This document shows, in pieces, positions 25,839 through 40,045 of a stretch of DNA of 64,000 nucleotides. A model generated the notes under the pieces. That model saw nothing but the letters and a program-made list of their open reading frames with translations, was not told the origin of the DNA and made no database searches. Where the stretch lies: contig JADKAC010000005.1 of the NCBI GenBank assembly GCA_016715425.1, forward strand, positions 832,798 through 896,797. Direction: 5' to 3'. A program made the position numbers and the translations under genes. Source of the stretch: Bacteroidota bacterium. GTDB lineage: Bacteria > Bacteroidota > Bacteroidia > Chitinophagales > BACL12. Numbering within the stretch: the stretch's first letter is position 1; every line of letters begins with the position of its first letter.

Positions 25839-26513
25839 ATGCAATTTAAAATTCTGATTGTAGATGATGAACCTGACGTAGTTGAATTTATTGAATACAA
25901 TCTTTTGAAGGAAGATTATGAAGTGCATAAAGCATTTAACGGGAAGCAAGGTCTTCTTTTAGCAAAGGAAATAAAACCAGATTTAATTTTATTAGATATA
26001 ATGATGCCCGAAGTTGATGGTATTGAAGTATGCAGAGAATTGCGGGCAATTCCTGAATTTAGCCAAACGCTGATAGCATTTCTTACAGCAAGAAACGAAG
26101 ATTTTACTCAGGTACAAGGATTTGAGGTTGGTGCAGATGATTATATATCAAAACCTGTGAAGCCAAGGATTTTAACCAGCCGGATAAAAGCATTGTTGCG
26201 CAGGAAAATAAATGTACTTGAAGAAAATGGTATTCAAGTTTTTGGTGATCTTAAATTTGATAGAGAAAAGTATCTTGTTTATAAAAATAATATTCCTATT
26301 AATCTGGCAAAAAAAGAATTTGAATTGTTTCAATTGTTGACTTCTAAGCCGGGCAGAGTTTTTACTCGTTATGAAATATTCAGCGAAATTTGGGGTATTG
26401 ATGTGATAGTTGGAGACAGAACTATTGATGTGCACATCAGAAAAATAAGAGAAAAAATTGGGGATGATTTTATTAAAACAATTAAAGGTATCGGTTATAA
26501 GTTTGACTTTTAA
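25839..26513 (+). CDS. OmpR/PhoB-family response regulator
   Basis: Receiver domain (ILIVDDEPD, LLDIMMPEVDG, KP) plus a winged-helix output domain (RTIDVHIRKIREKI, GIGYKF). Confidence 0.9.
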   Translation: MQFKILIVDDEPDVVEFIEYNLLKEDYEVHKAFNGKQGLLLAKEIKPDLILLDIMMPEVDGIEVCRELRAIPEFSQTLIAFLTARNEDFTQVQGFEVGADDYISKPVKPRILTSRIKALLRRKINVLEENGIQVFGDLKFDREKYLVYKNNIPINLAKKEFELFQLLTSKPGRVFTRYEIFSEIWGIDVIVGDRTIDVHIRKIREKIGDDFIKTIKGIGYKFDF

Positions 26514-27559
26514 TGAAAAATCCAACTCCTAAGCAAATTGTATTTAGATCAGCATTACTTATTTCTTTGCTTTATTGCGTGTTGTCTTTACTACCTTTTT
26601 TATTTCCACAGCTTAATTATATTTTTTACTACACTATAATTCTAACAGCTGCAATTTTTGTAATCAGCTACTTTGTTTTTTTTCGATTTCTGGAAGCATT
26701 TATTTATCGTAAAATAAAGTTGATCTATAAAAATATTCATGATCTTAAATCCACCCGAAAGCTTACAAGTCAAACTGTGGATTTACAAAAAGACATTATC
26801 TCCGAAGTAAATGAACAAGTGGTAAATTGGGCTAATGAACGCAATTCTGAAATTGAACAGTTGAAGAAATTAGAAATTTATCGACGTGAATTTTTAGGTA
26901 ATGTTTCACATGAATTAAAAACTCCAATTACCAGCATTCTTGGTTATCTTGAAACACTAAGCGACGGTGGCATAAATGATCCTGATATCTCTACCGATTA
27001 TTTAAATAAAGCGATACGCAATGTGGAACGCATGATTTCTACAATAGATAATTTGGAATCCATAGCAAATTTGGAAAGTGGTGAATTGCAATTAAAAGAG
27101 ATTCCTTTTGATATAAATGATTTAACTAAACAAGTATTAATTGACATTGAATTACCTGCCAGGCAGCGCAATATTTCTATGGTAATAAAGGAAGGTTGCG
27201 ATAAAACATTTACAGTTATGGCAGATAAAAATCTGATACGTGATGTGCTTACTAATTTATTAATTAATTCTATTAAATATGGAAAACCTGAAGGCAAAAC
27301 AAGTATTGGATATTATAATATGGGTGAAAATGTTTTGGTTGAGGTTTCCGATAATGGTGTAGGTATTTCTAAAGAAAATTTAAATCGAGTTTTTGAAAGA
27401 TTTTATCGTGTTGAAAAAAGTCGTAGCCGTGAATTTGGAGGTACCGGTCTTGGCCTTTCCATCGTTAAACATATTATTGAAGCACATAATCAAACAGTAT
27501 CTGCACGCAGTACAATTCATCAGGGATCCACCTTTGGATTTACATTAAAGAAAGCGTAA
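26513..27559 (+). CDS. sensor histidine kinase (PhoR-like architecture)
   Basis: Two N-terminal TM helices, H-box FLGNVSHELKTPIT, N-box LLINSIKY, and G-boxes DNGVGI / GGTGLGLSIV. ATGA start/stop overlap with the regulator gene. Confidence 0.85.
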   Translation: MKNPTPKQIVFRSALLISLLYCVLSLLPFLFPQLNYIFYYTIILTAAIFVISYFVFFRFLEAFIYRKIKLIYKNIHDLKSTRKLTSQTVDLQKDIISEVNEQVVNWANERNSEIEQLKKLEIYRREFLGNVSHELKTPITSILGYLETLSDGGINDPDISTDYLNKAIRNVERMISTIDNLESIANLESGELQLKEIPFDINDLTKQVLIDIELPARQRNISMVIKEGCDKTFTVMADKNLIRDVLTNLLINSIKYGKPEGKTSIGYYNMGENVLVEVSDNGVGISKENLNRVFERFYRVEKSRSREFGGTGLGLSIVKHIIEAHNQTVSARSTIHQGSTFGFTLKKA

Positions 27560-32432: not shown

Positions 32433-32858
32433 TTAGCTTTTCACTAAATTAAATGAGCCCGCTAAATCGATACATATTTTTTTTATTTCTTCTCTTGCGG
32501 TATGATACCGTTCCAATGTATTTAAATATGAGTCAGATTTTAATGGATCTGTTATCTCGTATTGTTCAAAAGGAATTCCATTTAAGCTTTCAATAATTTC
32601 AGGCGCTACATAGCCAAGAATATAGATATAATCAAATGTTTTTAAAATATTCTTATTGAAATCTACGGTAAGATTTTGATTTAGTTCAATACCATCTTCA
32701 AACATTACATCTAATGCAAGCGGATGAATTGTGCGGATATCCGTACTAGCAACAGTAATTTGTATATCACCTTTATTAAAATATTGCAAATATCCTTGGA
32801 ACATACGTCCAAGACTTGCTTTTCCTCTGGAGATAACGAGTATTGAATTAAGTTTCAT
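32433..32858 (-). CDS. hypothetical protein with a degenerate low-molecular-weight phosphatase/ArsC-like N-terminus
   Basis: ILVISRGKASLGRMFQGYL aligns by eye with the ILFVCTGNSCRSQMAEG P-loop, but both the Cys and the Arg of CX5R are replaced. A DP motif is retained near the C-terminus. Confidence 0.3.
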   Translation of the reverse strand: MKLNSILVISRGKASLGRMFQGYLQYFNKGDIQITVASTDIRTIHPLALDVMFEDGIELNQNLTVDFNKNILKTFDYIYILGYVAPEIIESLNGIPFEQYEITDPLKSDSYLNTLERYHTAREEIKKICIDLAGSFNLVKS

Positions 32859-32975
32859 TGTTGCTGCTAAATTAATGTAGTTTTAAAAAGAAAATATTAA
32901 TTTTTTTCTTACTTAATTTACACTAGCTTATCAATCAACTGATTTTCAACTTGTACCCTAAAAACAATTTAAGTC

Positions 32976-34115
32976 ATGAATCTTCTAGAAAAATTATCAG
33001 CACCCGGCCCGAAACGTATTCTTGCCCTGGATGGCGGTGGTATTAAAGGCGCACTCACACTTGGTTTTTTAAATAGAATTGAAACGATTCTTAGAAAAAA
33101 GCATCACAATGAAAACATGGTGCTCAGCAATTATTTCGATTTTATCGGCGGTACCAGTACAGGTTCTATTATTGCAGCGCTGCTTGCAATAGGACATAGC
33201 ACAGAATATATCACTAAACTTTATCGTGAATTAGGTGGAGAAATTTTTAAAGATGATCGTCCTGTAATTGGTGGGTTGTTTGTTCCAAAATTTAAATCGA
33301 AGAATTTAAAAGAACGATTGAAAAAAGAATTTGGTGATATGACTTTAGAAAGTGATAAAATTCTAACCGGACTATGCATACTTACAAAAAGAATTGATAC
33401 AGGAGGAACATGGCCAATAATTAATCATCCGAAGGCAAAATATTTTAAGGATAATAAAGATATTCTGTTGCGGGATGCTGTTCGTGCAAGTACTGCGGCT
33501 CCTTCTTATTTTGAACCGGAAAGATTACAGGTGAAATTAGATCAAGCCGGAGATTTTATTGATGGTGGTGTCAGTATGGCAAATAATCCTGCATTATATA
33601 TGTTTATGGTTTCTCAATTAAAAGGATTTCCATTTCATTGGAATACAGGAAAAGAAAATCTGCTGATAGTTTCGGTTGGAACTGGTGGTACTCGTGCAAG
33701 ATTTCCTTTGGATAAATTAGATATAGTGGACAAGGTGGTAAAGGCAAAACATTGGGCGGTAAGTTCAATTGAATTGTTGATGAGCGATGCTCATATTTTT
33801 AATCAAATGATGTTGCAATCTTTGGGTTATTCACCAACCAGAATTTCCATTGATAGAGAGATTGGCAATATGGAATTAGATTGTATCACCACAAATCCAT
33901 TGTTTACTTATTTGCGTTATGATATGCCTTTCGATCCCGTTATAATTGCACAGCATCCTACTGTTGCAGAATATATAAATAAGTCAAAAATAGATGTGTT
34001 TGATTTGCGTAAAATGGATAAAGCAAAAAATAGAGAGGTGTTAGGTGCTATTGGTGAAATTGCTGCAGATGAACAAGTGAAAGCCGATCATTTTTCAGAT
34101 AGTTTTAATATTTAA
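32976..34115 (+). CDS. patatin-like phospholipase
   Basis: Oxyanion motif LALDGGGIKG, nucleophile elbow GGTSTGS (GxSxG), and catalytic Asp motif FIDGGVSMANNP. The Ser-Asp dyad is complete. Confidence 0.9.
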   Translation: MNLLEKLSAPGPKRILALDGGGIKGALTLGFLNRIETILRKKHHNENMVLSNYFDFIGGTSTGSIIAALLAIGHSTEYITKLYRELGGEIFKDDRPVIGGLFVPKFKSKNLKERLKKEFGDMTLESDKILTGLCILTKRIDTGGTWPIINHPKAKYFKDNKDILLRDAVRASTAAPSYFEPERLQVKLDQAGDFIDGGVSMANNPALYMFMVSQLKGFPFHWNTGKENLLIVSVGTGGTRARFPLDKLDIVDKVVKAKHWAVSSIELLMSDAHIFNQMMLQSLGYSPTRISIDREIGNMELDCITTNPLFTYLRYDMPFDPVIIAQHPTVAEYINKSKIDVFDLRKMDKAKNREVLGAIGEIAADEQVKADHFSDSFNI

Positions 34116-34117
34116 TT

Positions 34118-34342
34118 ATGAAAAAATTTAAAAAAGGGGATATACCTGATTTAAAATTTGCTCAGGCAGTGAAGAAGCCTATTCCGGTAAAATGCATTCA
34201 ATTAGAAGAACCATTTGAAGTGGAAACAATGGAAGGAATTATGCAAGGTAAAGCGGGAGATTGGCTGATAGTGGGAATTCATGGAGAAATGTATCCTATT
34301 GATAAAACGATTTTCGAAAAAACATACGACATAAAAGAATAG
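34118..34342 (+). CDS. small protein, PGDYG-domain-like
   Basis: 74 aa. ...PVKCIQLEEPFEVETMEGIMQGKAGDWLIVGIHGEMYPIDKTIFEKTYDI matches my memory of the PGDYG small-domain pattern (PGDY replaced by AGDW). Starts 2 nt after the patatin stop. Confidence 0.4.
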   Translation: MKKFKKGDIPDLKFAQAVKKPIPVKCIQLEEPFEVETMEGIMQGKAGDWLIVGIHGEMYPIDKTIFEKTYDIKE

Positions 34343-34399
34343 GAAGTAATACCAACTTCACAGAATAGAATAAATTTAAATTAATTAAAACAAACTAAT

Positions 34400-35194
34400 A
34401 TGCTGGAATTTTCAAAAAGTATGCAACGATTAATTAGCATGAACAAACTTGAACAGGCTATTGATGAATTTCAAAATGTGTTGGATAGATTTAATCCGAT
34501 TACAGAAACGGATAAAATAGAACAACGGGATTTGCGAACGGCTATCATCGCAACTTCACAACGATTGTATTTAGTAAAAGAAAAAGAACAAAAAGGAAAT
34601 TTAAGTGATGACGAAATCATGCGTGAACGTCGTTCGGTAAGCAATTCATTTCTGGATATAATAAATGAGCTGGATAAATATGATGCAGTAAATGCATATT
34701 TAATTACTTGGGAAGATGAGCAAGCCTGGAGAAAAACAAATTCATTAAATGCCATTGATGCATATAAGGAATATTTAAATAAATATCCTACGGGTAAATA
34801 TGCAGATGATGCAAGAAAATTTATCAGCATGTTGAAGATGATGGAGGAACAAAAAATAAAAGAGAAGGCAGAAGAAATCTATACTCCTCCTTTACAAAGC
34901 CATGCACCAAAACAGGAACGTATTATTTACAATGATCCTCCAGTTGAAAACAGAACAATGTATGAAAAACAACATGCATCTGTGGGTTCCGGCGAAGAAC
35001 TTTCTAATGGCTTATTTATCGTTTTACTCATTGGTTGTATTATTCCAATTATAGGTATTGGTGCCGGTGCGTATTTTCTTTATACAAAAAATAACTCCGT
35101 TTATAAATATGATGAGCCTAGCCGTAAAAAAGGAAGAACACTTATGATAGTGGGAGGGATAATGGTATTTCTATATATTATCGGAGGCTATTGA
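34400..35194 (+). CDS. membrane protein: N-terminal helical adaptor (effector-associated-domain-like), central helical region, C-terminal 2-TM hairpin
   Basis: The N-terminal ~90 aa align with the C-terminus of the adjacent TIR protein (see findings). The C-terminus has two hydrophobic helices, LFIVLLIGCIIPIIGIGAGAYFLY and TLMIVGGIMVFLYIIGGY. Confidence 0.6.
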   Translation: MLEFSKSMQRLISMNKLEQAIDEFQNVLDRFNPITETDKIEQRDLRTAIIATSQRLYLVKEKEQKGNLSDDEIMRERRSVSNSFLDIINELDKYDAVNAYLITWEDEQAWRKTNSLNAIDAYKEYLNKYPTGKYADDARKFISMLKMMEEQKIKEKAEEIYTPPLQSHAPKQERIIYNDPPVENRTMYEKQHASVGSGEELSNGLFIVLLIGCIIPIIGIGAGAYFLYTKNNSVYKYDEPSRKKGRTLMIVGGIMVFLYIIGGY

Positions 35195-35195
35195 A

Positions 35196-35960
35196 ATGCC
35201 TGACTACAAAATCAATAATATCTTCATTTCCTACGCTCACGAAGATGAGCTGTTTAAGGATAAGCTTGTAAAACATTTATCGGGGTTAACAAGAAACGGC
35301 CAAATAAATTTATGGACAGATACGGTTATAGTTCCCGGTCAGGAATGGGATAATGAAATTAAGAATGCATTGCAACAAGCAGATATTATTTTGTTTTTAG
35401 TGAGTGCGGATTTTATGGCTTCCAATTATATTCATACTATCGAAATTGAAAATGCAATTGCAAAACATAATTCTGGTGAAATAATTATTGTTCCGGTAAT
35501 TATCCGTTCTTGCGATTTCCGGAGTTTGCCTTTAAAGAAATTTCAGGCATTGCCAAAAGGAAATGTTCCGGTTACAAAATGGAGCGATGAGGATGAAGCG
35601 TTTTTAAATATTGTAGAAGGTATTAAAATGATTTTGGCTCCGGTAAAAGTAAATACAGCGCCGTCACCAGTTGTAAACCTAGATTCACAGATAATTGCAA
35701 GTATATCTCCTGAAATTTCTAAACAAATTCGCAATTTTATTGCAACTAATAAAACAGAATTGGCAATAAACATTATGATGAAAGTTATTCCTGAAAATAA
35801 TGCAGATGCAAGTAATACCTGTATTGTGTTACAGGCAAAATATAATGAATTGCGTAAAAAGAATAGATTGGGAATTATGTCGTATGATGAATATTCAAGA
35901 TCCGTTTCGGGGGTGAATATTTCATTGCTTGAATTATTGGATACTTTAACTAATGCATGA
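35196..35960 (+). CDS. TIR-domain protein with a C-terminal helical adaptor domain
   Basis: IFISYAHEDELFKDKLVKHL...WTD..VPGQEWDNEIKNALQQADIILFLVSADFMASNYIHTIEIENAI is a TIR_2-type pattern that includes the conserved Glu position. The ~80-aa C-terminal region is helical. Confidence 0.85.
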   Translation: MPDYKINNIFISYAHEDELFKDKLVKHLSGLTRNGQINLWTDTVIVPGQEWDNEIKNALQQADIILFLVSADFMASNYIHTIEIENAIAKHNSGEIIIVPVIIRSCDFRSLPLKKFQALPKGNVPVTKWSDEDEAFLNIVEGIKMILAPVKVNTAPSPVVNLDSQIIASISPEISKQIRNFIATNKTELAINIMMKVIPENNADASNTCIVLQAKYNELRKKNRLGIMSYDEYSRSVSGVNISLLELLDTLTNA

Positions 35961-36928
35961 TGCAATTTCGAACTGAATTATTTCCGGCATCGGAAGCAAT
36001 TGTTATTAATTATAATTCTCGGATTTTTACTATCGGTTCTTGTTTCACTGAACATATTAGCAATACTCTTAGAACTTTAAAATTTAATGTGCTGTCAAAT
36101 CCATTTGGCATTGTATATAATCCGGTTTCAATTTGCAATCAATTGGAAAGAATTGTAAAGAGAAAGTATTTTATTGCTGACGATTTGTTTTTATCTGAAG
36201 GAGTTTATCGCACATTTGAAGCGCATAGCATAATGGCTGATTATACTCAAGAAGAAACATTGCAAAAAATAAATACTGTAATTGATGAATCACATATTAG
36301 GTTACAAAACACTACCCATGTCATCATTACTTTCGGTGCTTCGATTATACATGAGCTTAGTGAAACAAAATCTATAGTAGCAAATAATCACAAACAAGCG
36401 GCAAGTACATTTCAAAAACGTTTTCTCACAATTATTGAAATAGTAGAGGCATATCTGATGATAATATTTTATCTAAAGAAAATGAATGCGGATATTGAAA
36501 TTGTGTTTACCATAAGTCCTGTACGGCATATCAAAGATGGGCTTACGGATAATACAATAAGCAAGTCCTTACTGTTTGCTGCCTTGCATGAAATCTTAAA
36601 TAAAAAAGATATTTTTTATTTTCCTTCTTATGAATTAGTGATAGATGATTTGCGTGATTATCGTTTTTTTGAAAAAGATTTGGTGCATCCCAATGCAATG
36701 GCTATTGATTATGTATGGGAGAAATTTAAATCGTGGGCAATTAGTAAAGATTGTTATTCAACGATGGAAAATATTTCCAAAATAAATTCTGCAATTCAAC
36801 ACAGACCCTTTTTCAATAAAACTGAACAGCATAAGGAATTTAGAAAGAAAATGGTAGAATTTACTTTGCAATTGCAGAAAAAAAATCCGATGTTGAATTT
36901 CGAAAAGGAAATTGAATTCTTTACTTGA
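35957..36928 (+). CDS. GSCFA-family protein (SGNH-hydrolase-like, function unknown)
   Basis: The N-terminal FTIGSCFTEHI matches the GSCFA signature. The remainder is consistent in length (323 aa). ATGA overlap with the TIR gene. Confidence 0.65.
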   Translation: MMQFRTELFPASEAIVINYNSRIFTIGSCFTEHISNTLRTLKFNVLSNPFGIVYNPVSICNQLERIVKRKYFIADDLFLSEGVYRTFEAHSIMADYTQEETLQKINTVIDESHIRLQNTTHVIITFGASIIHELSETKSIVANNHKQAASTFQKRFLTIIEIVEAYLMIIFYLKKMNADIEIVFTISPVRHIKDGLTDNTISKSLLFAALHEILNKKDIFYFPSYELVIDDLRDYRFFEKDLVHPNAMAIDYVWEKFKSWAISKDCYSTMENISKINSAIQHRPFFNKTEQHKEFRKKMVEFTLQLQKKNPMLNFEKEIEFFT

Positions 36929-36940
36929 TTTTTTTAAAAT

Positions 36941-37275
36941 GGTATCGGGTATCGAGTATCGGGTATAGAACTTTGACTATTGACTATTGACTTAGACATT
37001 GACAAAAAAAACACATCACTGAATTTGGCTATTAACTTTTAGCTATTGGCTGTTGGCGAAAAAAAACTTTGACTATTGATGAAAAACTTTGGCTATTGGC
37101 TATTGACCATTAACATTGACTATTGACAAAAAAAACTCATCACTCATTATTGATTATTCATTAATTATTTTTCATTTACAATTTACAATTTACCATTTAC
37201 AATTGCTTATTGCTTATTGCCTTTTGCTAATTGCTTATTATTTTTTCACCATTCACCATTCACCATTCACTATTT
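36941..37275. repeat. mosaic of heptanucleotide tandem-repeat blocks in a convergent intergenic region
   Basis: Blocks of about 4-5 units each: GGTATCG (36941-36968), TTGACTA (36973-37003 and again 37068-37130, mixed with TTGGCTA), TTGGCTA-like (37026-37060), ATTTACA (37174-37204), TTGCTTA (37203-37237), TCACCAT (37246-37273). There is also a higher-order repeat TTGACAAAAAAAAC(A/T)CATCACT at about 36998 and 37123. Confidence 0.9.
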
Positions 37276-37617
37276 TCTTATCCAACGCAAGGCATACCCT
37301 GCGCATGCACTGAAGCCACCAATAATTCCCATCAATAGACTACTAATCAGAAGGAATAAATTTTTATTACTGAGTCCAAATACTTCCGCCATACGGGTAC
37401 TTAATAAACCTGCATTTTGAATATCGAACCACATATATAAAAGTATCCATGCAATGGAAACTATCAAAACACCGGATAAAAATGCTTTGTATAATTTATT
37501 TACAGGAATAAAGAAAAACATAAAAAATGTTACGCCTGCAAATACAAACCACGGTAATAGCAATTGCAAAACAATACAAATAAGCACACCGGATACTATC
37601 AGCCATAAAAATTTCAT
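37270..37617 (-). CDS. small integral membrane protein (hypothetical)
   Basis: About 115 aa with 3-4 hydrophobic helices. ATG 37617 (MKFLWLIVSG) is preferred over the track start 37647 because it removes the overlap with the acylase gene. Confidence 0.5.
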   Translation of the reverse strand: MKFLWLIVSGVLICIVLQLLLPWFVFAGVTFFMFFFIPVNKLYKAFLSGVLIVSIAWILLYMWFDIQNAGLLSTRMAEVFGLSNKNLFLLISSLLMGIIGGFSACAGYALRWIRK

Positions 37618-37618
37618 G

Positions 37619-40045
37619 TTATTTAAATATTGTTGTGAAAAAGGCATTATGTTCTGCCTCTTTTTCTGTTTTATAAAATTGAAGTGGATAATAAATATTA
37701 TTTGCCCAGTCAGTTATAAAATTATCATAATACTTACTTCCCGGATTACCGCTTTGGCCGCCGGGATAAATTGCCCATGCCTTTATTTGTTTTGGATCCA
37801 TTTCTACAATCATTCGCCACGATGGTCCATTGCGTTCGCTGGTGGCATTCACTATATTTCTATAGCCCCCATTTTTAATTGTAGTGCGACTAAAAGCAGG
37901 TATTTGTGCTAAGTGCATGATTGAAGTATTTTTATATTTATACCACTGCAAATTATCGGGATGTAATTGCAAAAGACTATCCTTCCAAATTGTGGTTTCT
38001 TCTATTGCCATTAATGCGATATCTGCAAAAGTTTCTTTCTTGTTTGTATTTTGAATATCGAAATAATTAACCGCCAATCCGGATTTTATAAATTGAATAG
38101 TTGCATAATTGCTTGGTAATAAAAGTGATTTTGTATTGTTAGGAATAACAAACTCATCCCACAACATGGTATTAAAAGTTGTCCAGAATTTTTGAAACAG
38201 GGAAGGAGTTATTAATTCTGCATTATTTTCATAATTCCATGTACCTAAAGAATCATAAATAACATTTGCACTATCCGAAAGTTGCATTGCATCAATTGCA
38301 CGTAAAAGTATCGGCAATGACTCAGCTGCGATTAAATTGTAATTATCACCTTGAAGCAGCATCATATCTTCAACAGTAATTTGTTGCATAGAATCTAATA
38401 AGAAATTGATGCGACGATTTCGAAAAAATTCAAAATCGCTGCTCATATAAAAATAAGGATAGAGTGTATCTGTAGGATGTTGATTTGCCGAACTCACATA
38501 CCCTCGTGTAGGATTAAGAATAAACGGATTTTGAGAAAAAGGGATATAAGTATTCCATTCATTTGCAGGCATACTTCCATCCAATACAAAGCGACCTTGT
38601 TCCGGCCACTTCACTGCATATTTTCCTGTTTGTGTAATACCGATATCTCCCGTGATAGATGCAAAAACAATGTTTTGACCGGGACATTCAAAATAGGAAA
38701 CGGCAGTTCTGTAATCGGAATAATTCTTCGATTTGTTCAGCAAATAAAACACTCTAAAATCATTAGAAATATCAATAGCGGCCCAACGCATTGCCAATGA
38801 ATTCCAATCCGAATACGCAGTATCAAAATCTTTATAAACCATTGGCCCCTGATGCGTGTAAAAAACTGTATCTATTATTTCTGGTCCGTCTTTTACTTTA
38901 ATATGTTCTATTTGTTTTGAAAATGGTTTTATTGAATTATCATACTTGTAATTATTGTTATCTGCATTTGTAATGCGATACCAGTCACGTACATCACGAC
39001 CAGAATTAGTACTGCCCCATGCGATATAATTATTAAATCCGATTATTATCGCAGGCGCACCGGCAAAACATACTCCATAATTATTATTATCCGGTGTGGT
39101 TAATTGAATCTCAAACCATATAGAAGGTAAGTTTAATTGCAGATGCGGATCATTACATAAAATAGCATTGCCGTTTTTGGTTTTAGCAGGTGCAATGGCC
39201 CAATTATTACTGCCTACACCTGATTGTTCTTCGTCGTGTTGTTCATGATTATTTATACCATAAATAGATTCAGTATAATATGCATTGGAAGTATCGGTTT
39301 GTAAAGCATTAAAATTATATGGAGTTCCTTTTGGAATTATGGGTTCCAAATCATTTGGCCAAAGCGGATATAACAAATTAAAATCTTCCCGACCAATTAA
39401 ATTAATGGCATTTGTGTATTCCACATCATCATCAAAACCTGCGAGAGTATTGCTCATGTACATCAGTAAATTACAAGTATGCAACGGTTCGAACTTCGTG
39501 GGTTTAAAATTCAACAGTTTATATTCCAAAGGATAATCTGCGTATTTCAGCGTTTCGATATATGCATTCACACCTTCGGAATATGCATTTATAATTCCAT
39601 TAATTTCCGGATCCGCTTGAATTGCTTTTAATTTATTTTCTGCACCCTTTGCCATTCCTAAACGACGTTGAAGACGATCATAATTAATTAAATCCGGACC
39701 TAATATTTCAGAGAGCTGACCTGATGCTGCACGGAAAGTAATTTCCATTTGCCATAAACGATGTTTAGCAACAATGTATCCTTGAGCCATATATAAGTCG
39801 TGCTCGTTTTCAGCAAATATGTGGGGCACCAAACGGGTGTCATAATACACATGCACAGGATCATGTAATCCGGGCAATTCTAATACTTGTGATTTGTAAT
39901 CATATTTATTTTCTGCATTCGCCATATAGCCATGAACAGGATCTAATAATTTTCCTACTGGAGGTAATTTTCCTTTTCCATTATTGAAAATGAAAATTAG
40001 TGTAATGGAGATACAAGCAAAAAATATAAAACGAAGAAATCGCAT
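37619..40045 (-). CDS. penicillin acylase-family Ntn hydrolase (possibly an acyl-homoserine-lactone or beta-lactam acylase)
   Basis: 808 aa with a signal peptide. The autoprocessing/nucleophile site GVGSNNWAIAP (Ser-Asn-Asn-Trp) is typical of the S45 family. Confidence 0.8.
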   Translation of the reverse strand: MRFLRFIFFACISITLIFIFNNGKGKLPPVGKLLDPVHGYMANAENKYDYKSQVLELPGLHDPVHVYYDTRLVPHIFAENEHDLYMAQGYIVAKHRLWQMEITFRAASGQLSEILGPDLINYDRLQRRLGMAKGAENKLKAIQADPEINGIINAYSEGVNAYIETLKYADYPLEYKLLNFKPTKFEPLHTCNLLMYMSNTLAGFDDDVEYTNAINLIGREDFNLLYPLWPNDLEPIIPKGTPYNFNALQTDTSNAYYTESIYGINNHEQHDEEQSGVGSNNWAIAPAKTKNGNAILCNDPHLQLNLPSIWFEIQLTTPDNNNYGVCFAGAPAIIIGFNNYIAWGSTNSGRDVRDWYRITNADNNNYKYDNSIKPFSKQIEHIKVKDGPEIIDTVFYTHQGPMVYKDFDTAYSDWNSLAMRWAAIDISNDFRVFYLLNKSKNYSDYRTAVSYFECPGQNIVFASITGDIGITQTGKYAVKWPEQGRFVLDGSMPANEWNTYIPFSQNPFILNPTRGYVSSANQHPTDTLYPYFYMSSDFEFFRNRRINFLLDSMQQITVEDMMLLQGDNYNLIAAESLPILLRAIDAMQLSDSANVIYDSLGTWNYENNAELITPSLFQKFWTTFNTMLWDEFVIPNNTKSLLLPSNYATIQFIKSGLAVNYFDIQNTNKKETFADIALMAIEETTIWKDSLLQLHPDNLQWYKYKNTSIMHLAQIPAFSRTTIKNGGYRNIVNATSERNGPSWRMIVEMDPKQIKAWAIYPGGQSGNPGSKYYDNFITDWANNIYYPLQFYKTEKEAEHNAFFTTIFK

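What the first reader, a model, noticed from the sequence alone, without database searches (positions are those of the whole stretch)
32976..36928. Five-gene patatin / PGDYG-like / adaptor-2TM / TIR-adaptor / GSCFA operon that fits no named defence system
Seen in the sequence: five same-strand ORFs are packed with a 2-nt gap, a 57-nt gap, a 1-nt gap and a 4-nt ATGA overlap, which implies co-transcription and likely translational coupling. The patatin protein has a complete catalytic set (DGGGIKG, GTSTG, DGG). The TIR protein keeps the conserved Glu position (..YIHTIEIENAI..). The third protein ends in a 2-TM hairpin. Established knowledge: patatin phospholipases and TIR NADases are recurrent effectors of bacterial anti-phage systems (CBASS CapV, Thoeris ThsB and others). 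Those systems also carry a signal-generating or sensing partner, such as a CD-NTase, a SIR2/SLOG ThsA, or a STAND NTPase. None of these is present here or in the flanking genes. Inference: this could be a compact multi-effector conflict module (membrane lipid attack, membrane protein and NAD depletion) that uses an unrecognised trigger. The 74-aa PGDYG-like protein or the GSCFA hydrolase-like protein are the only candidates for sensor or modulator roles. The block sits between a T9SS/TonB pair and an unusual repeat mosaic, consistent with an accessory insertion.
Basis: partly seen in the sequence, partly recalled or inferred. Interest (0 to 1): 0.8.

Follow-up and report, generated by a model that had tools for sequence, protein, structure and literature searches.

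The report
TIR–patatin conflict module with PGDYG partner
A Chitinophagales genome carries a compact four-gene module, probably for phage defence or cell suicide (lipase, small PGDYG β-barrel protein, membrane adaptor, TIR enzyme), and the small protein belongs to an uncharacterised family, common in phages, that repeatedly sits next to or is fused to such killing enzymes; the fifth gene (GSCFA) is just a neighbour.

Summary
There are five tightly packed + strand ORFs with the stated gaps, an intact patatin catalytic set, an invariant TIR glutamate and a C-terminal 2-TM hairpin.

Four genes form a real, conserved module made of two coupled pairs: patatin with a 74-aa PGDYG β-barrel, and EAD11–helical hairpin–2TM with TIR–EAD11.

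GSCFA is a resident neighbour. It is absent from every other TIR-EAD11, patatin or PGDYG context. Its orthologues sit among unrelated housekeeping genes, and it evolves at a different rate.

The block is not a recent insertion. It is syntenic in relatives down to 58% TIR identity, has ordinary GC content, and is flanked by housekeeping genes.

It matches no PADLOC system. Conceptually it belongs with the expanded Thoeris family (TIR as sensor and signal maker plus a membrane-attacking effector) and with EAD-coupled conflict systems.

The new element is PGDYG. This small β-barrel has no solved structure or described function. It is found in 514 phage genomes. It also recurs beside TIR with patatin, SLATT or caspase genes in three phyla, and is fused to patatin, SLATT and DHH domains. 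It may receive the TIR signal or detect phage. Its function has not been tested.

The parts
32976..34115 (+). Patatin-like phospholipase (379 aa). Catalytic G-G-G-x-K-G (residues 19-25), Ser61 in GTSTG, Asp196 in DGG. Predicted membrane-lipid-degrading effector.
   Evidence: Pfam PF01734 3e-29. PADLOC CBASS-type phospholipase effector PDLC00758 7e-50. NCBIfam CBASS_lipase 137 bits, below the 200 cut-off. Orthologues at 50% (L006), 46% (Algibacter) and 38% (L009) identity all sit in TIR islands.
34118..34342 (+). 74-aa single-unit PGDYG-like small beta-barrel protein, the partner of the patatin.
   Evidence: PF14083 23.6 bits, below GA 27. Exhaustive phmmer finds 5765 representative clusters, including proteins that pass PF14083. 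AF2 pLDDT 93.8, five strands plus a helix. No PDB fold match. 22 phage structure matches at E<=1e-3. It is fused to the patatin in L009.
34400..35194 (+). EAD11-helical hairpin-linker-2TM protein (264 aa), a membrane-embedded partner of the TIR protein. EAD11 = residues 7-92 (34418-34675). Conserved TPR-like hairpin = residues 95-160 (34682-34879). Variable disordered linker. TM helices 203-228 (35006-35083) and 239-263 (35114-35188).
   Evidence: Pfam EAD11 8e-10. AF2 secondary structure. Conservation pattern. Only 5 homologues in 5.8e9 clusters, all from the same lineage, plus a more distant one in L013.
35196..35960 (+). TIR-EAD11 protein (254 aa). TIR = about residues 9-149 (35220-35642) with catalytic Glu83 (35442-35444). 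EAD11 = residues 176-251 (35721-35948).
   Evidence: TIR_2 3e-17 and EAD11 3e-16. PADLOC ThsB1 PDLC00420 5e-45. E83 invariant.
35957..36928 (+). GSCFA-family (SGNH-like) protein. Overlaps the TIR stop codon and is probably co-transcribed, but is judged a resident neighbour and not a component.
   Evidence: PF08885 2e-81. Absent from all other TIR-EAD11, patatin and PGDYG loci. Orthologues sit in housekeeping contexts. 50% identity to syntenic copies, against 58-79% for the other four genes.
32859..32975 (.). 117-nt divergent intergenic region upstream of the patatin gene, the presumed promoter region.
   Evidence: Read from the sequence. The sigma-70-type scan was not above shuffles, as expected for Bacteroidota, so no promoter is identified.

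Best explanation
This is a four-gene, vertically inherited, TIR-centred conflict module, most likely for abortive-infection phage defence. It is built from two coupled pairs.

Pair A is the patatin phospholipase plus the 74-aa PGDYG beta-barrel.

Pair B is TIR-EAD11 plus EAD11-hairpin-2TM. The two EAD11 domains bind each other (a homotypic adaptor). This holds or assembles the TIR enzyme at the inner membrane on the 2-TM protein.

Proposed mechanism, by analogy with Thoeris. The ThsB-like TIR is the infection sensor. Once triggered it oligomerises and cleaves NAD+, either releasing a cADPR-type signal or simply depleting NAD+. The PGDYG protein, physically associated with the patatin, transmits activation. 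The patatin then degrades membrane phospholipids. The 2-TM partner adds a second membrane lesion or localises the reaction.

Shown here: domain content, intact catalytic residues, conserved gene order, recurrent co-occurrence and gene fusion.

Inferred, not shown: defence function, EAD11-EAD11 binding, a TIR-derived signal, and PGDYG as its receiver.

GSCFA is a co-transcribed housekeeping neighbour.
For: Domains and catalytic residues.

The same four genes occur in the same order at 58-79% identity in L002-L005.

Evolutionary rates fall into two matched classes: patatin 79/71% and PGDYG 78/68%, against EAD11-2TM 64/58% and TIR-EAD11 63/58%.

Independent recurrences:
- Saprospiraceae: TIR-patatin-SLATT divergent from PGDYGx2 + TIR-EAD11.
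- L009: a patatin::PGDYG fusion in an island with TIR-EAD11 and an EAD11 membrane protein.
- Algibacter: caspase-TPR-S, PGDYG (69% id), two membrane-anchored TIRs and a patatin (46% id) in one operon.
- Maribacter: caspase-TPR-S, PGDYG / nSTAND1, TIR, SLATT.
- Dictyobacter: TIR-PGDYG-SLATT.
- Caballeronia: TIR...SLATT-PGDYG.

SLATT-SLATT-PGDYG and DHH-PGDYG fusions exist.

TIR-EAD11 homologues lie next to nSTAND1 + SIR2-EAD11, a Septu-like pair and SLATT.

L013 keeps the EAD11-2TM + TIR-EAD11 pair.

Literature: EAD homotypic coupling (PMC7159879); TIR + SLATT = type VII Thoeris, and TIR + SLOG-patatin is a predicted type (10.64898/2025.12.03.692087).
Against: There is no experimental evidence for any step.

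The locus is not in a defence island. The flanks are housekeeping genes. Patatin and PGDYG evolve as slowly as the flanking genes, which is unusual for defence genes.

PGDYG occurs alone in Flavisolibacter and Ilyomonas. It is repeated 31 times in one giant protein, which fits a generic binding module better than a dedicated nucleotide receptor.

More distant patatins (34-36% id) lack PGDYG.

The two SLOG-patatin Thoeris candidates tested in E. coli gave no defence.

Most TIR-EAD11 genes have no second EAD11 gene within 10 kb, so EAD11 may act by self-association rather than by pairing.

The positive charges in the TM1-TM2 loop (SRKKGR) are atypical for a simple N-in hairpin.
Confidence: 0.5

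Rival explanations
1. Two independent two-gene modules happen to be adjacent. One is a patatin + PGDYG pair. The other is an EAD11-coupled pair in which the 2-TM protein senses membrane perturbation and the TIR is a terminal NAD+-depleting effector. No signal passes between TIR and patatin.
For: The two pairs have different evolutionary rates. The only sizeable gap (57 nt) lies between them. L013 shows the EAD11 pair, though its upstream sequence is cut by the contig end. In three Flavobacteriaceae, PGDYG follows a caspase-TPR-S gene rather than a patatin gene. Kaur et al. describe membrane-sensor + effector two-gene systems that use EADs (PMC7159879).
Against: TIR genes accompany patatin and/or PGDYG in at least seven independent contexts across three phyla. 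In Saprospiraceae, PGDYG directly precedes TIR-EAD11 with a 1-nt gap. No terminator separates the pairs.
Confidence: 0.25
2. One reading: a five-gene system in which the GSCFA hydrolase is a functional sensor, modulator or effector.
For: The 4-nt overlap with the TIR gene is kept in L002-L005. GSCFA is an SGNH-like hydrolase that could in principle degrade a lipid or a nucleotide signal.
Against: GSCFA is found nowhere else next to TIR-EAD11, patatin or PGDYG. Orthologues at 37-42% identity are equally tightly packed against unrelated genes such as a prenyl synthase and TatD. Its divergence is out of step with the other four genes. A weak terminator-like hairpin lies just after the TIR stop codon.
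Confidence: 0.07
3. The module is not an immune system. It is a housekeeping or developmental module for regulated membrane-lipid remodelling or programmed cell death in a filamentous or gliding Bacteroidota lifestyle, using TIR/NAD+ chemistry for endogenous signalling.
For: Vertical inheritance at a fixed chromosomal site, housekeeping flanks and no mobile elements. Slow evolution of patatin and PGDYG. The 74-aa protein is 60-78% identical across Flavobacteriia and Chitinophagia, sometimes alone. Kaur et al. link EAD systems to multicellular habits (PMC7159879).
Against: The partners in other genomes are classic conflict genes: SLATT, caspase-TPR-S, nSTAND1, SIR2 and a Septu-like pair. PGDYG is widespread in phages. 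Distribution is patchy, and EAD11-2TM has only 5 homologues.
Confidence: 0.12

Closest known systems
Thoeris, as expanded to types I-XI and 29 putative types (Yirmiya et al., bioRxiv 10.64898/2025.12.03.692087). The nearest members are the putative 'TIR + SLOG-patatin' type and type VII (TIR + SLATT, canonical cADPR).
   Same: A ThsB-like TIR with the catalytic Glu sits beside a cell-killing, membrane-directed effector (patatin here; SLATT in the Saprospiraceae, Dictyobacter and Caballeronia relatives). No separate sensor gene is needed.
   Different: The patatin has no SLOG or other recognised signal-binding domain. A PGDYG beta-barrel, separate here and fused in L009, occupies that architectural slot. 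The TIR carries an EAD11 adaptor paired with a 2-TM protein. Neither PGDYG nor EAD11 appears in that paper or its stored supplements. Signal production and defence are untested. The two SLOG-patatin candidates gave no defence in E. coli.
EAD-coupled NTP-dependent conflict systems (Kaur, Burroughs, Iyer, Aravind 2020, PMC7159879)
   Same: The same effector-associated domain (EAD11) is on two adjacent gene products, one of them an enzymatic TIR. This implies homotypic recruitment. The closest analogy is their membrane-associated two-gene system, EACC1 (TM sensor, sometimes EAD-fused) + effector.
   Different: There is no NTPase, VMAP, iSTAND or GAP1 core in the window. The EAD partner is a 2-TM protein unrelated to EACC1. 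EAD11 is not among the ten EADs discussed in the text of that paper: the term 'EAD11' is absent from it.
Type I CBASS with a CapV patatin effector
   Same: The patatin is most similar to CBASS phospholipase effector profiles (PADLOC 7e-50; NCBIfam CBASS_lipase 1e-39).
   Different: There is no CD-NTase within 12 kb. The score of 137 bits is below the 200-bit equivalog cut-off. The neighbours are TIR, EAD11 and PGDYG instead.
Phage Thoeris-signal sponges Tad1/Tad2 (functional analogy for phage PGDYG proteins only)
   Same: They are small phage-encoded proteins whose domain relatives sit in host TIR systems, which is compatible with signal binding.
   Different: No sequence or fold similarity to any solved structure, including Tad proteins, was detected. 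The analogy is speculative.

Membership tests
Thoeris (TIR signalling defence) | ThsB: a TIR-domain protein with the catalytic glutamate | tested here: met
   TIR_2 3e-17. PADLOC ThsB1 PDLC00420 5e-45. Glu83 invariant in 15 homologues.
Thoeris (TIR signalling defence) | An adjacent effector carrying a domain that binds the TIR-made signal (SLOG, Macro, etc.) | tested here: inconclusive
   An effector (patatin) is present in the same operon, but no known signal-binding domain was found by Pfam, NCBIfam or PADLOC. PGDYG is a candidate only by its position and its fusions.
Thoeris (TIR signalling defence) | Infection-dependent production of a cADPR-type or related signal that activates the effector, and phage protection | not testable with these tools
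   This requires lysate/LC-MS and plaque assays.
Thoeris (TIR signalling defence) | Enrichment next to known defence genes | tested here: inconclusive
   The window flanks are housekeeping genes. Homologues sit beside SLATT, nSTAND1/SIR2, a Septu-like pair and caspase-TPR-S.
Type VII Thoeris (TIR + SLATT) | A SLATT-domain effector | tested here: not met
   No SLATT hit in the window proteins with Pfam or with a local SLATT HMM on the identical L001 locus. SLATT is present only in related loci.
CBASS | A CD-NTase (cGAS/DncV-like) signal synthase in the operon | tested here: not met
   No such gene among the cassette or the large flanking ORFs.
CBASS | A CapV-type cGAMP-activated phospholipase | tested here: not met
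   NCBIfam NF041079 gives 136.8 bits against a cut-off of 200. It is similar but not an equivalog.
EAD-coupled conflict systems (Kaur et al. 2020) | The same EAD on two or more proteins encoded by adjacent genes, one fused to an effector or signalling enzyme | tested here: met
   EAD11 at the N-terminus of protein 3 (8e-10) and the C-terminus of the TIR protein (3e-16). A local EAD11 HMM finds only these two ORFs in the 64 kb.
EAD-coupled conflict systems (Kaur et al. 2020) | One EAD copy fused to a core NTPase-type component (VMAP, iSTAND, STAND, GAP1, Ubl) | tested here: not met
   The partner is a 2-TM protein, and there is no NTPase in the window. In L011 an nSTAND1 gene is adjacent to two EAD11 effectors.
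EAD-coupled conflict systems (Kaur et al. 2020) | Adjacent EAD copies are each other's closest relatives | tested here: inconclusive
   The best match of the protein-3 EAD11 is the neighbouring TIR EAD11, but only at 26% and tied with others.
PGDYG (PF14083) | A match to the family profile above the gathering score | tested here: inconclusive
   23.6 bits against GA 27, and it covers only the C-terminal half of the 102-position model. The protein is, however, homologous at E down to 1e-39 to proteins that pass PF14083, and it matches phage 'PGDYG protein' models structurally at 6e-6. It is best read as a single-unit member of the wider family.
GSCFA (PF08885) | A match above the gathering score with the GSCF motif | tested here: met
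   273.6 bits against 25, with the motif IGSCFTEH. It is a member of the family but is judged not to be part of the system.

The most novel reading that the evidence does not exclude
The PGDYG beta-barrel is a previously unrecognised receiver/adaptor domain of TIR immunity. It would bind a TIR-made NAD+-derived signal, or co-assemble with phage PGDYG proteins, and switch on diverse killing effectors (patatin, SLATT, caspase-hydrolase) in trans or as a fusion. The hundreds of phage-encoded PGDYG proteins would then be sponges or decoys that counteract it. That would define both a new Thoeris-like branch and a new family of phage anti-defence proteins.
Probability: 0.2. Interest if true: 0.85.

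Novelty: new variant of a known kind. Interest (0 to 1): 0.6.

Why it matters
TIR signalling systems (Thoeris) are now thought to occur in about 8% of prokaryotic genomes, with many effector types still unverified. This locus shows a variant in which the phospholipase effector lacks any known signal-binding domain. Instead it is paired with a PGDYG beta-barrel, and elsewhere fused to one.

PGDYG is a family with no solved structure and no described function. It is present in about 1% of sequenced phage genomes. It recurs next to TIR with SLATT, patatin or caspase genes in Bacteroidota, Chloroflexota and Proteobacteria. If PGDYG is the signal receiver or a phage-recognition module, that would give a function to a large 'dark' phage/host protein family and suggest a new class of phage counter-defence.

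The locus also gives a minimal, NTPase-free example of EAD-mediated coupling (TIR tethered to a 2-TM protein), which makes the untested EAD homotypic-adaptor hypothesis directly testable with two small proteins.

Tried and rejected
- **GSCFA as a component:** rejected.
- **Accessory insertion or mobile island:** rejected. GC content is flat, the site is syntenic in relatives and the flanks are housekeeping genes.
- **A hidden third EAD11 protein or NTPase in the window:** none found.
- **Protein 3 as a SLATT relative:** no hit.
- **The central hairpin of protein 3 as a homologue of the post-TM region of the Algibacter TIR proteins:** only a marginal motif match (E 0.003 in a tiny database, 0.07 in the locus set). 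Not claimed.
- **A PGDYG relationship to a solved structure or to the Tad sponges:** none by profile or by Foldseek (best E 0.7).
- **Foldseek on the protein 3 model:** nothing meaningful.
- **Literature:** 'PGDYG' is found in no paper. 'EAD11' is found only as unrelated strings.
- **Looking for the window TIR in the Thoeris preprint's TIR table by motif:** no match, but the stored file is truncated.
- **Plasmid patatins at 34-36% identity:** no PGDYG partner, so the patatin-PGDYG link is not universal for the subfamily.
- **Promoter and terminator scans:** not above shuffled expectation.
- **The upstream 141-aa LMWPc/ArsC-like gene on the opposite strand:** absent in L005, so not part of the module.

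Full report
**1. Observation**

The five + strand ORFs exist exactly as described:
- patatin, 32976-34115
- a 74-aa protein, 34118-34342
- a 264-aa protein, 34400-35194
- a 254-aa protein, 35196-35960
- GSCFA, 35957-36928

The junctions are a 2-nt gap, a 57-nt gap, a 1-nt gap and an ATGA overlap, all read from the sequence.

Pfam gives the following:
- Patatin: 3e-29
- PGDYG: 23.6 bits, just under the cut-off of 27
- EAD11 at the N-terminus of protein 3: 8e-10
- TIR_2: 3e-17
- EAD11 at the C-terminus of protein 4: 3e-16
- GSCFA: 2e-81

The patatin has the Gly-rich loop (residues 19-25), Ser61 in GTSTG and Asp196 in DGG. The TIR Glu83 is invariant across 15 homologues down to 33% identity. Protein 3 ends in two hydrophobic helices, 203-228 and 239-263.

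PADLOC recognises only the patatin (CBASS-type phospholipase effector, 7e-50) and the TIR (ThsB1, 5e-45). It has nothing for proteins 2, 3 and 5. NCBIfam's CBASS_lipase model scores 137 bits, below its 200-bit cut-off.

**2. Source and setting**

The closest named relative is from a Chitinophagales MAG, at 91% identity for the TIR protein. About 12 kb on either side is housekeeping: polyphosphate kinase, a two-component pair, a TonB-dependent receptor, a T9SS substrate, penicillin amidase and a P-type ATPase. GC content is flat across the block.

A local EAD11 HMM finds only the two EAD11 ORFs in all 64 kb. No NTPase, CD-NTase, SLOG or SIR2 gene is nearby.

The same cassette lies at the same site (TonB receptor, T9SS protein, cassette) in relatives whose TIR protein is 63% and 58% identical. 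It is therefore an old resident of this lineage, not a recent insertion.

**3. Which genes belong together**

Identity of each window gene to its syntenic copies in L002 / L005:

| Gene | vs L002 | vs L005 |
|---|---|---|
| TonB receptor (flank) | 79% | 74% |
| T9SS protein (flank) | 73% | 69% |
| patatin | 79% | 71% |
| PGDYG | 78% | 68% |
| EAD11-2TM | 64% | 58% |
| TIR-EAD11 | 63% | 58% |
| GSCFA | 50% | 50% |

The four cassette genes fall into two matched rate classes. GSCFA falls outside both.

A census with local HMMs covered 92 loci. Eighty of them came from species-representative genomes selected through the TIR alignment. Four further look-ups followed. GSCFA appeared only in the window's own lineage.

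L013 is a Chitinophagales MAG with a 48%-identical TIR. It keeps a homologue of protein 3 (EAD11 + hairpin + linker + 2TM; E 8e-13 for the hairpin) overlapping TIR-EAD11. What follows is a secreted protein and Lpd, not GSCFA.

GSCFA orthologues at 37-42% identity are equally tightly packed against unrelated genes (an HMG-CoA-lyase-like gene, a prenyl synthase, TatD). No TIR, EAD11, patatin or PGDYG gene is near them. Its N-terminus MMQFRTEL is conserved there too, so the overlapping start codon is genuine. Tight packing is simply typical of these genomes.

I conclude that GSCFA is a resident neighbour, possibly co-transcribed, and not a system component.

**4. The patatin-PGDYG pair**

The window patatin has orthologues in three independent TIR-rich contexts:
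- 50% identity in Saprospiraceae (L006/L007/L018). The operon there is TIR-patatin-SLATT, divergent from a 191-aa double-unit PGDYG protein followed, after 1 nt, by TIR-EAD11.
- 46% identity in Algibacter amylolyticus. One operon encodes a caspase/α/β-hydrolase/TPR-S protein, PGDYG (69% identical to the window's), two membrane-anchored TIR proteins, the patatin and another TPR-S protein.
- 38% identity in L009. There the patatin is a 560-aa protein with a double PGDYG unit fused to its C-terminus. The island also holds TIR-EAD11, an EAD11 membrane protein and three more TIR genes.

A 61-position PGDYG-unit HMM, built from exhaustive-search hits, confirms homology of the window protein to the long forms and to the fusion (E 4e-8 to 1.6e-4 against about 20,000 ORFs).

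**5. What PGDYG is**

An exhaustive phmmer search finds 5765 representative clusters. They fall into four kinds:
- small stand-alone proteins
- tandem arrays, including 31 units in one 3743-aa protein
- fusions to SLATT_3-SLATT_1 (two examples), to a DHH phosphoesterase and to annexin
- fusions to ParB-like N-termini

The short form is 60-78% identical across Flavobacteriia and Chitinophagia isolates.

AlphaFold2 gives a confident model (pLDDT 93.8) of five strands and a C-terminal helix. It has no significant match to any solved structure (best Foldseek E 0.7; sequence profile). It has 22 matches at E ≤ 1e-3 among predicted phage proteins, many of them annotated 'PGDYG protein'. tblastn finds the unit in 514 of 50,697 phage records from very diverse hosts, including archaeal viruses. 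PHROGs lists it only under families of unknown function. The word PGDYG occurs in no paper of the searchable library.

Further genomic contexts:
- Robiginitalea: caspase-TPR-S, then PGDYG, next to SLATT.
- Maribacter: caspase-TPR-S, then PGDYG, converging on nSTAND1-TIR-SLATT.
- Dictyobacter (Chloroflexota): TIR-PGDYG-SLATT.
- Caballeronia (Betaproteobacteria): TIR-x-protease-SLATT-PGDYG, with a 4-nt overlap.
- Flavisolibacter and Ilyomonas: PGDYG stands alone.

Among the 80 TIR-selected genome loci (1.19 Mb), four carry a PGDYG ORF within a few kb of the TIR gene. There were none in 106 kb of control sequence. This is suggestive, not a rigorous enrichment test.

**6. The EAD11 pair**

Effector-associated domains were defined by Kaur et al. 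(PMC7159879). They are small non-enzymatic domains. One copy sits on a core component and another on an effector encoded by the adjacent gene, which implies homotypic recruitment.

Here, EAD11 sits on a TIR enzyme and on a 2-TM protein. The 2-TM protein's EAD11, central helical hairpin and TM hairpin are conserved, while its linker is variable and disordered.

Protein 3 has only five homologues among 5.8 billion clusters, all from the same lineage, plus the more distant one in L013.

Elsewhere, TIR-EAD11 occurs in several settings:
- with SIR2-EAD11 and an nSTAND1 NTPase
- with an EAD11 membrane protein
- after a Septu-like ATPase + HNH pair
- next to SLATT
- often with no second EAD11 gene within 10 kb

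In Algibacter the TIR proteins carry their own TM helix. Membrane tethering of the TIR therefore appears to be achieved either directly or through EAD11.

**7. Mechanism**

The best-supported reading is a TIR-centred abortive-infection module. The ThsB-like TIR senses infection and cleaves NAD+. It is held on the membrane protein by EAD11-EAD11 contact. The patatin, assisted by PGDYG, destroys membrane phospholipids.

Whether the TIR makes a signal (Thoeris-like) or only depletes NAD+, and whether PGDYG receives that signal, is inference. PGDYG fills the architectural slot that SLOG fills in the predicted 'SLOG-patatin' Thoeris type, and it is fused to the same effector classes (patatin, SLATT). 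That is the basis for proposing a receiver or adaptor role.

The 31-fold tandem arrays and the solo genes argue for caution. PGDYG could be a more general binding module, or a phage-protein mimic.

**8. Comparison with known systems**

The December 2025 preprint from the Sorek laboratory (10.64898/2025.12.03.692087) extends Thoeris to types I-XI and 29 putative types. Type VII is TIR + SLATT, using canonical cADPR. 'SLOG Patatin' is a predicted type whose two tested examples gave no defence in E. coli. Neither PGDYG nor EAD11 occurs in the text or in the stored supplements.

The present module is therefore a new variant of a known kind:
- It meets the TIR criterion of Thoeris.
- It lacks a recognised signal-binding effector domain.
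- It meets the paired-EAD criterion of the EAD systems but lacks their NTPase core.
- It is not CBASS, because there is no CD-NTase and the patatin scores below the equivalog cut-off.

**9. Verdict**

Interest is moderate to high. This is mainly because of the PGDYG lead and because the locus offers a minimal EAD pair for testing. All functional statements remain untested.

Noticed in passing
window 36929-37274: The intergenic region after GSCFA is a mosaic of at least six different short tandem heptamer arrays, each with about 4-6 copies: GGTATCG, TTGACTA/GGCTATT, TCATTAT, ATTTACA, ATTGCTT, TTCACCA. It is absent from the syntenic relatives, where RmuC converges on GSCFA, and it coincides with the end of the public contig L001. 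Its function is unknown.
   Followed up: partly
window 36929-40045 vs L002/L005 11729-13096: Synteny breaks immediately downstream of GSCFA. The relatives have RmuC, Lactamase_B and DMRL synthase. The window has a 125-aa multi-TM ORF (37270-37647, -) with no family hit, and a penicillin amidase (37619-40045, -) that overlaps it by 29 nt.
   Followed up: partly
window 25839-27559: A response regulator + histidine kinase pair lies between Ppx and the TonB-dependent receptor. It is absent at this position in L002/L005, where Ppx is followed directly by the receptor.
   Followed up: no
window 35981-36006: A terminator-like hairpin (TTTCCGGCATCGGAAG plus a weak T-tract) lies 21 nt after the TIR stop codon, inside the 5' end of GSCFA. 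It could partly uncouple GSCFA from the cassette. The total count of such sites is not above shuffles.
   Followed up: no
L009 628-17198 (GCA_028279185.1, JANQSS010000043.1): A large conflict island. It holds a 1758-aa DUF7379/LCAT/CHAT/TPR-S protein, TIR x2, two Peptidase_M19-like proteins, TIR-EAD11, a 166-aa secreted protein, an EAD11 membrane protein, a patatin::PGDYG fusion and a TIR-SH3 protein.
   Followed up: partly
L093 5242-13196 (Algibacter amylolyticus), L096, L109: In three Flavobacteriaceae the short PGDYG gene directly follows a Peptidase_C14 (caspase)/α/β-hydrolase/TPR-S gene, with TIR, patatin, SLATT or nSTAND1 genes nearby. This looks like a recurrent, undescribed caspase-TPR-S + PGDYG unit.
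   Followed up: partly
P0058 (3743 aa), P0065 (3138 aa), P0102, P0162/P0171: There are giant proteins with up to 31 tandem PGDYG units, a DHH phosphoesterase-PGDYG fusion, and ParB-like (DGHHRH motif) N-termini fused to PGDYG. Their origin and context are unknown because the library carries no annotation.
   Followed up: no
L016 1-1836: A TIR-EAD11 gene lies immediately downstream of an AAA_21-like ATPase fragment and a 222-aa HNH protein, a Septu-like pair. In L022, TIR-EAD11 is followed by a 515-aa AAA-ATPase-like protein.
   Followed up: no
L104 (Rhizobium leguminosarum plasmid p_2, 35901-44469): A DUF4231/SLATT - DUF3380 - patatin (36% identical to the window's) - DUF4071 - ... - TIR (744 aa) cluster on a conjugative plasmid. 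It repeats the same island theme in Alphaproteobacteria without a detectable PGDYG.
   Followed up: partly
window 32433-32858 (-): A 141-aa LMWPc/ArsC-like ORF, below the family cut-offs, is divergent from the cassette. It is present in L002 (57% identity) but absent in L005.
   Followed up: no
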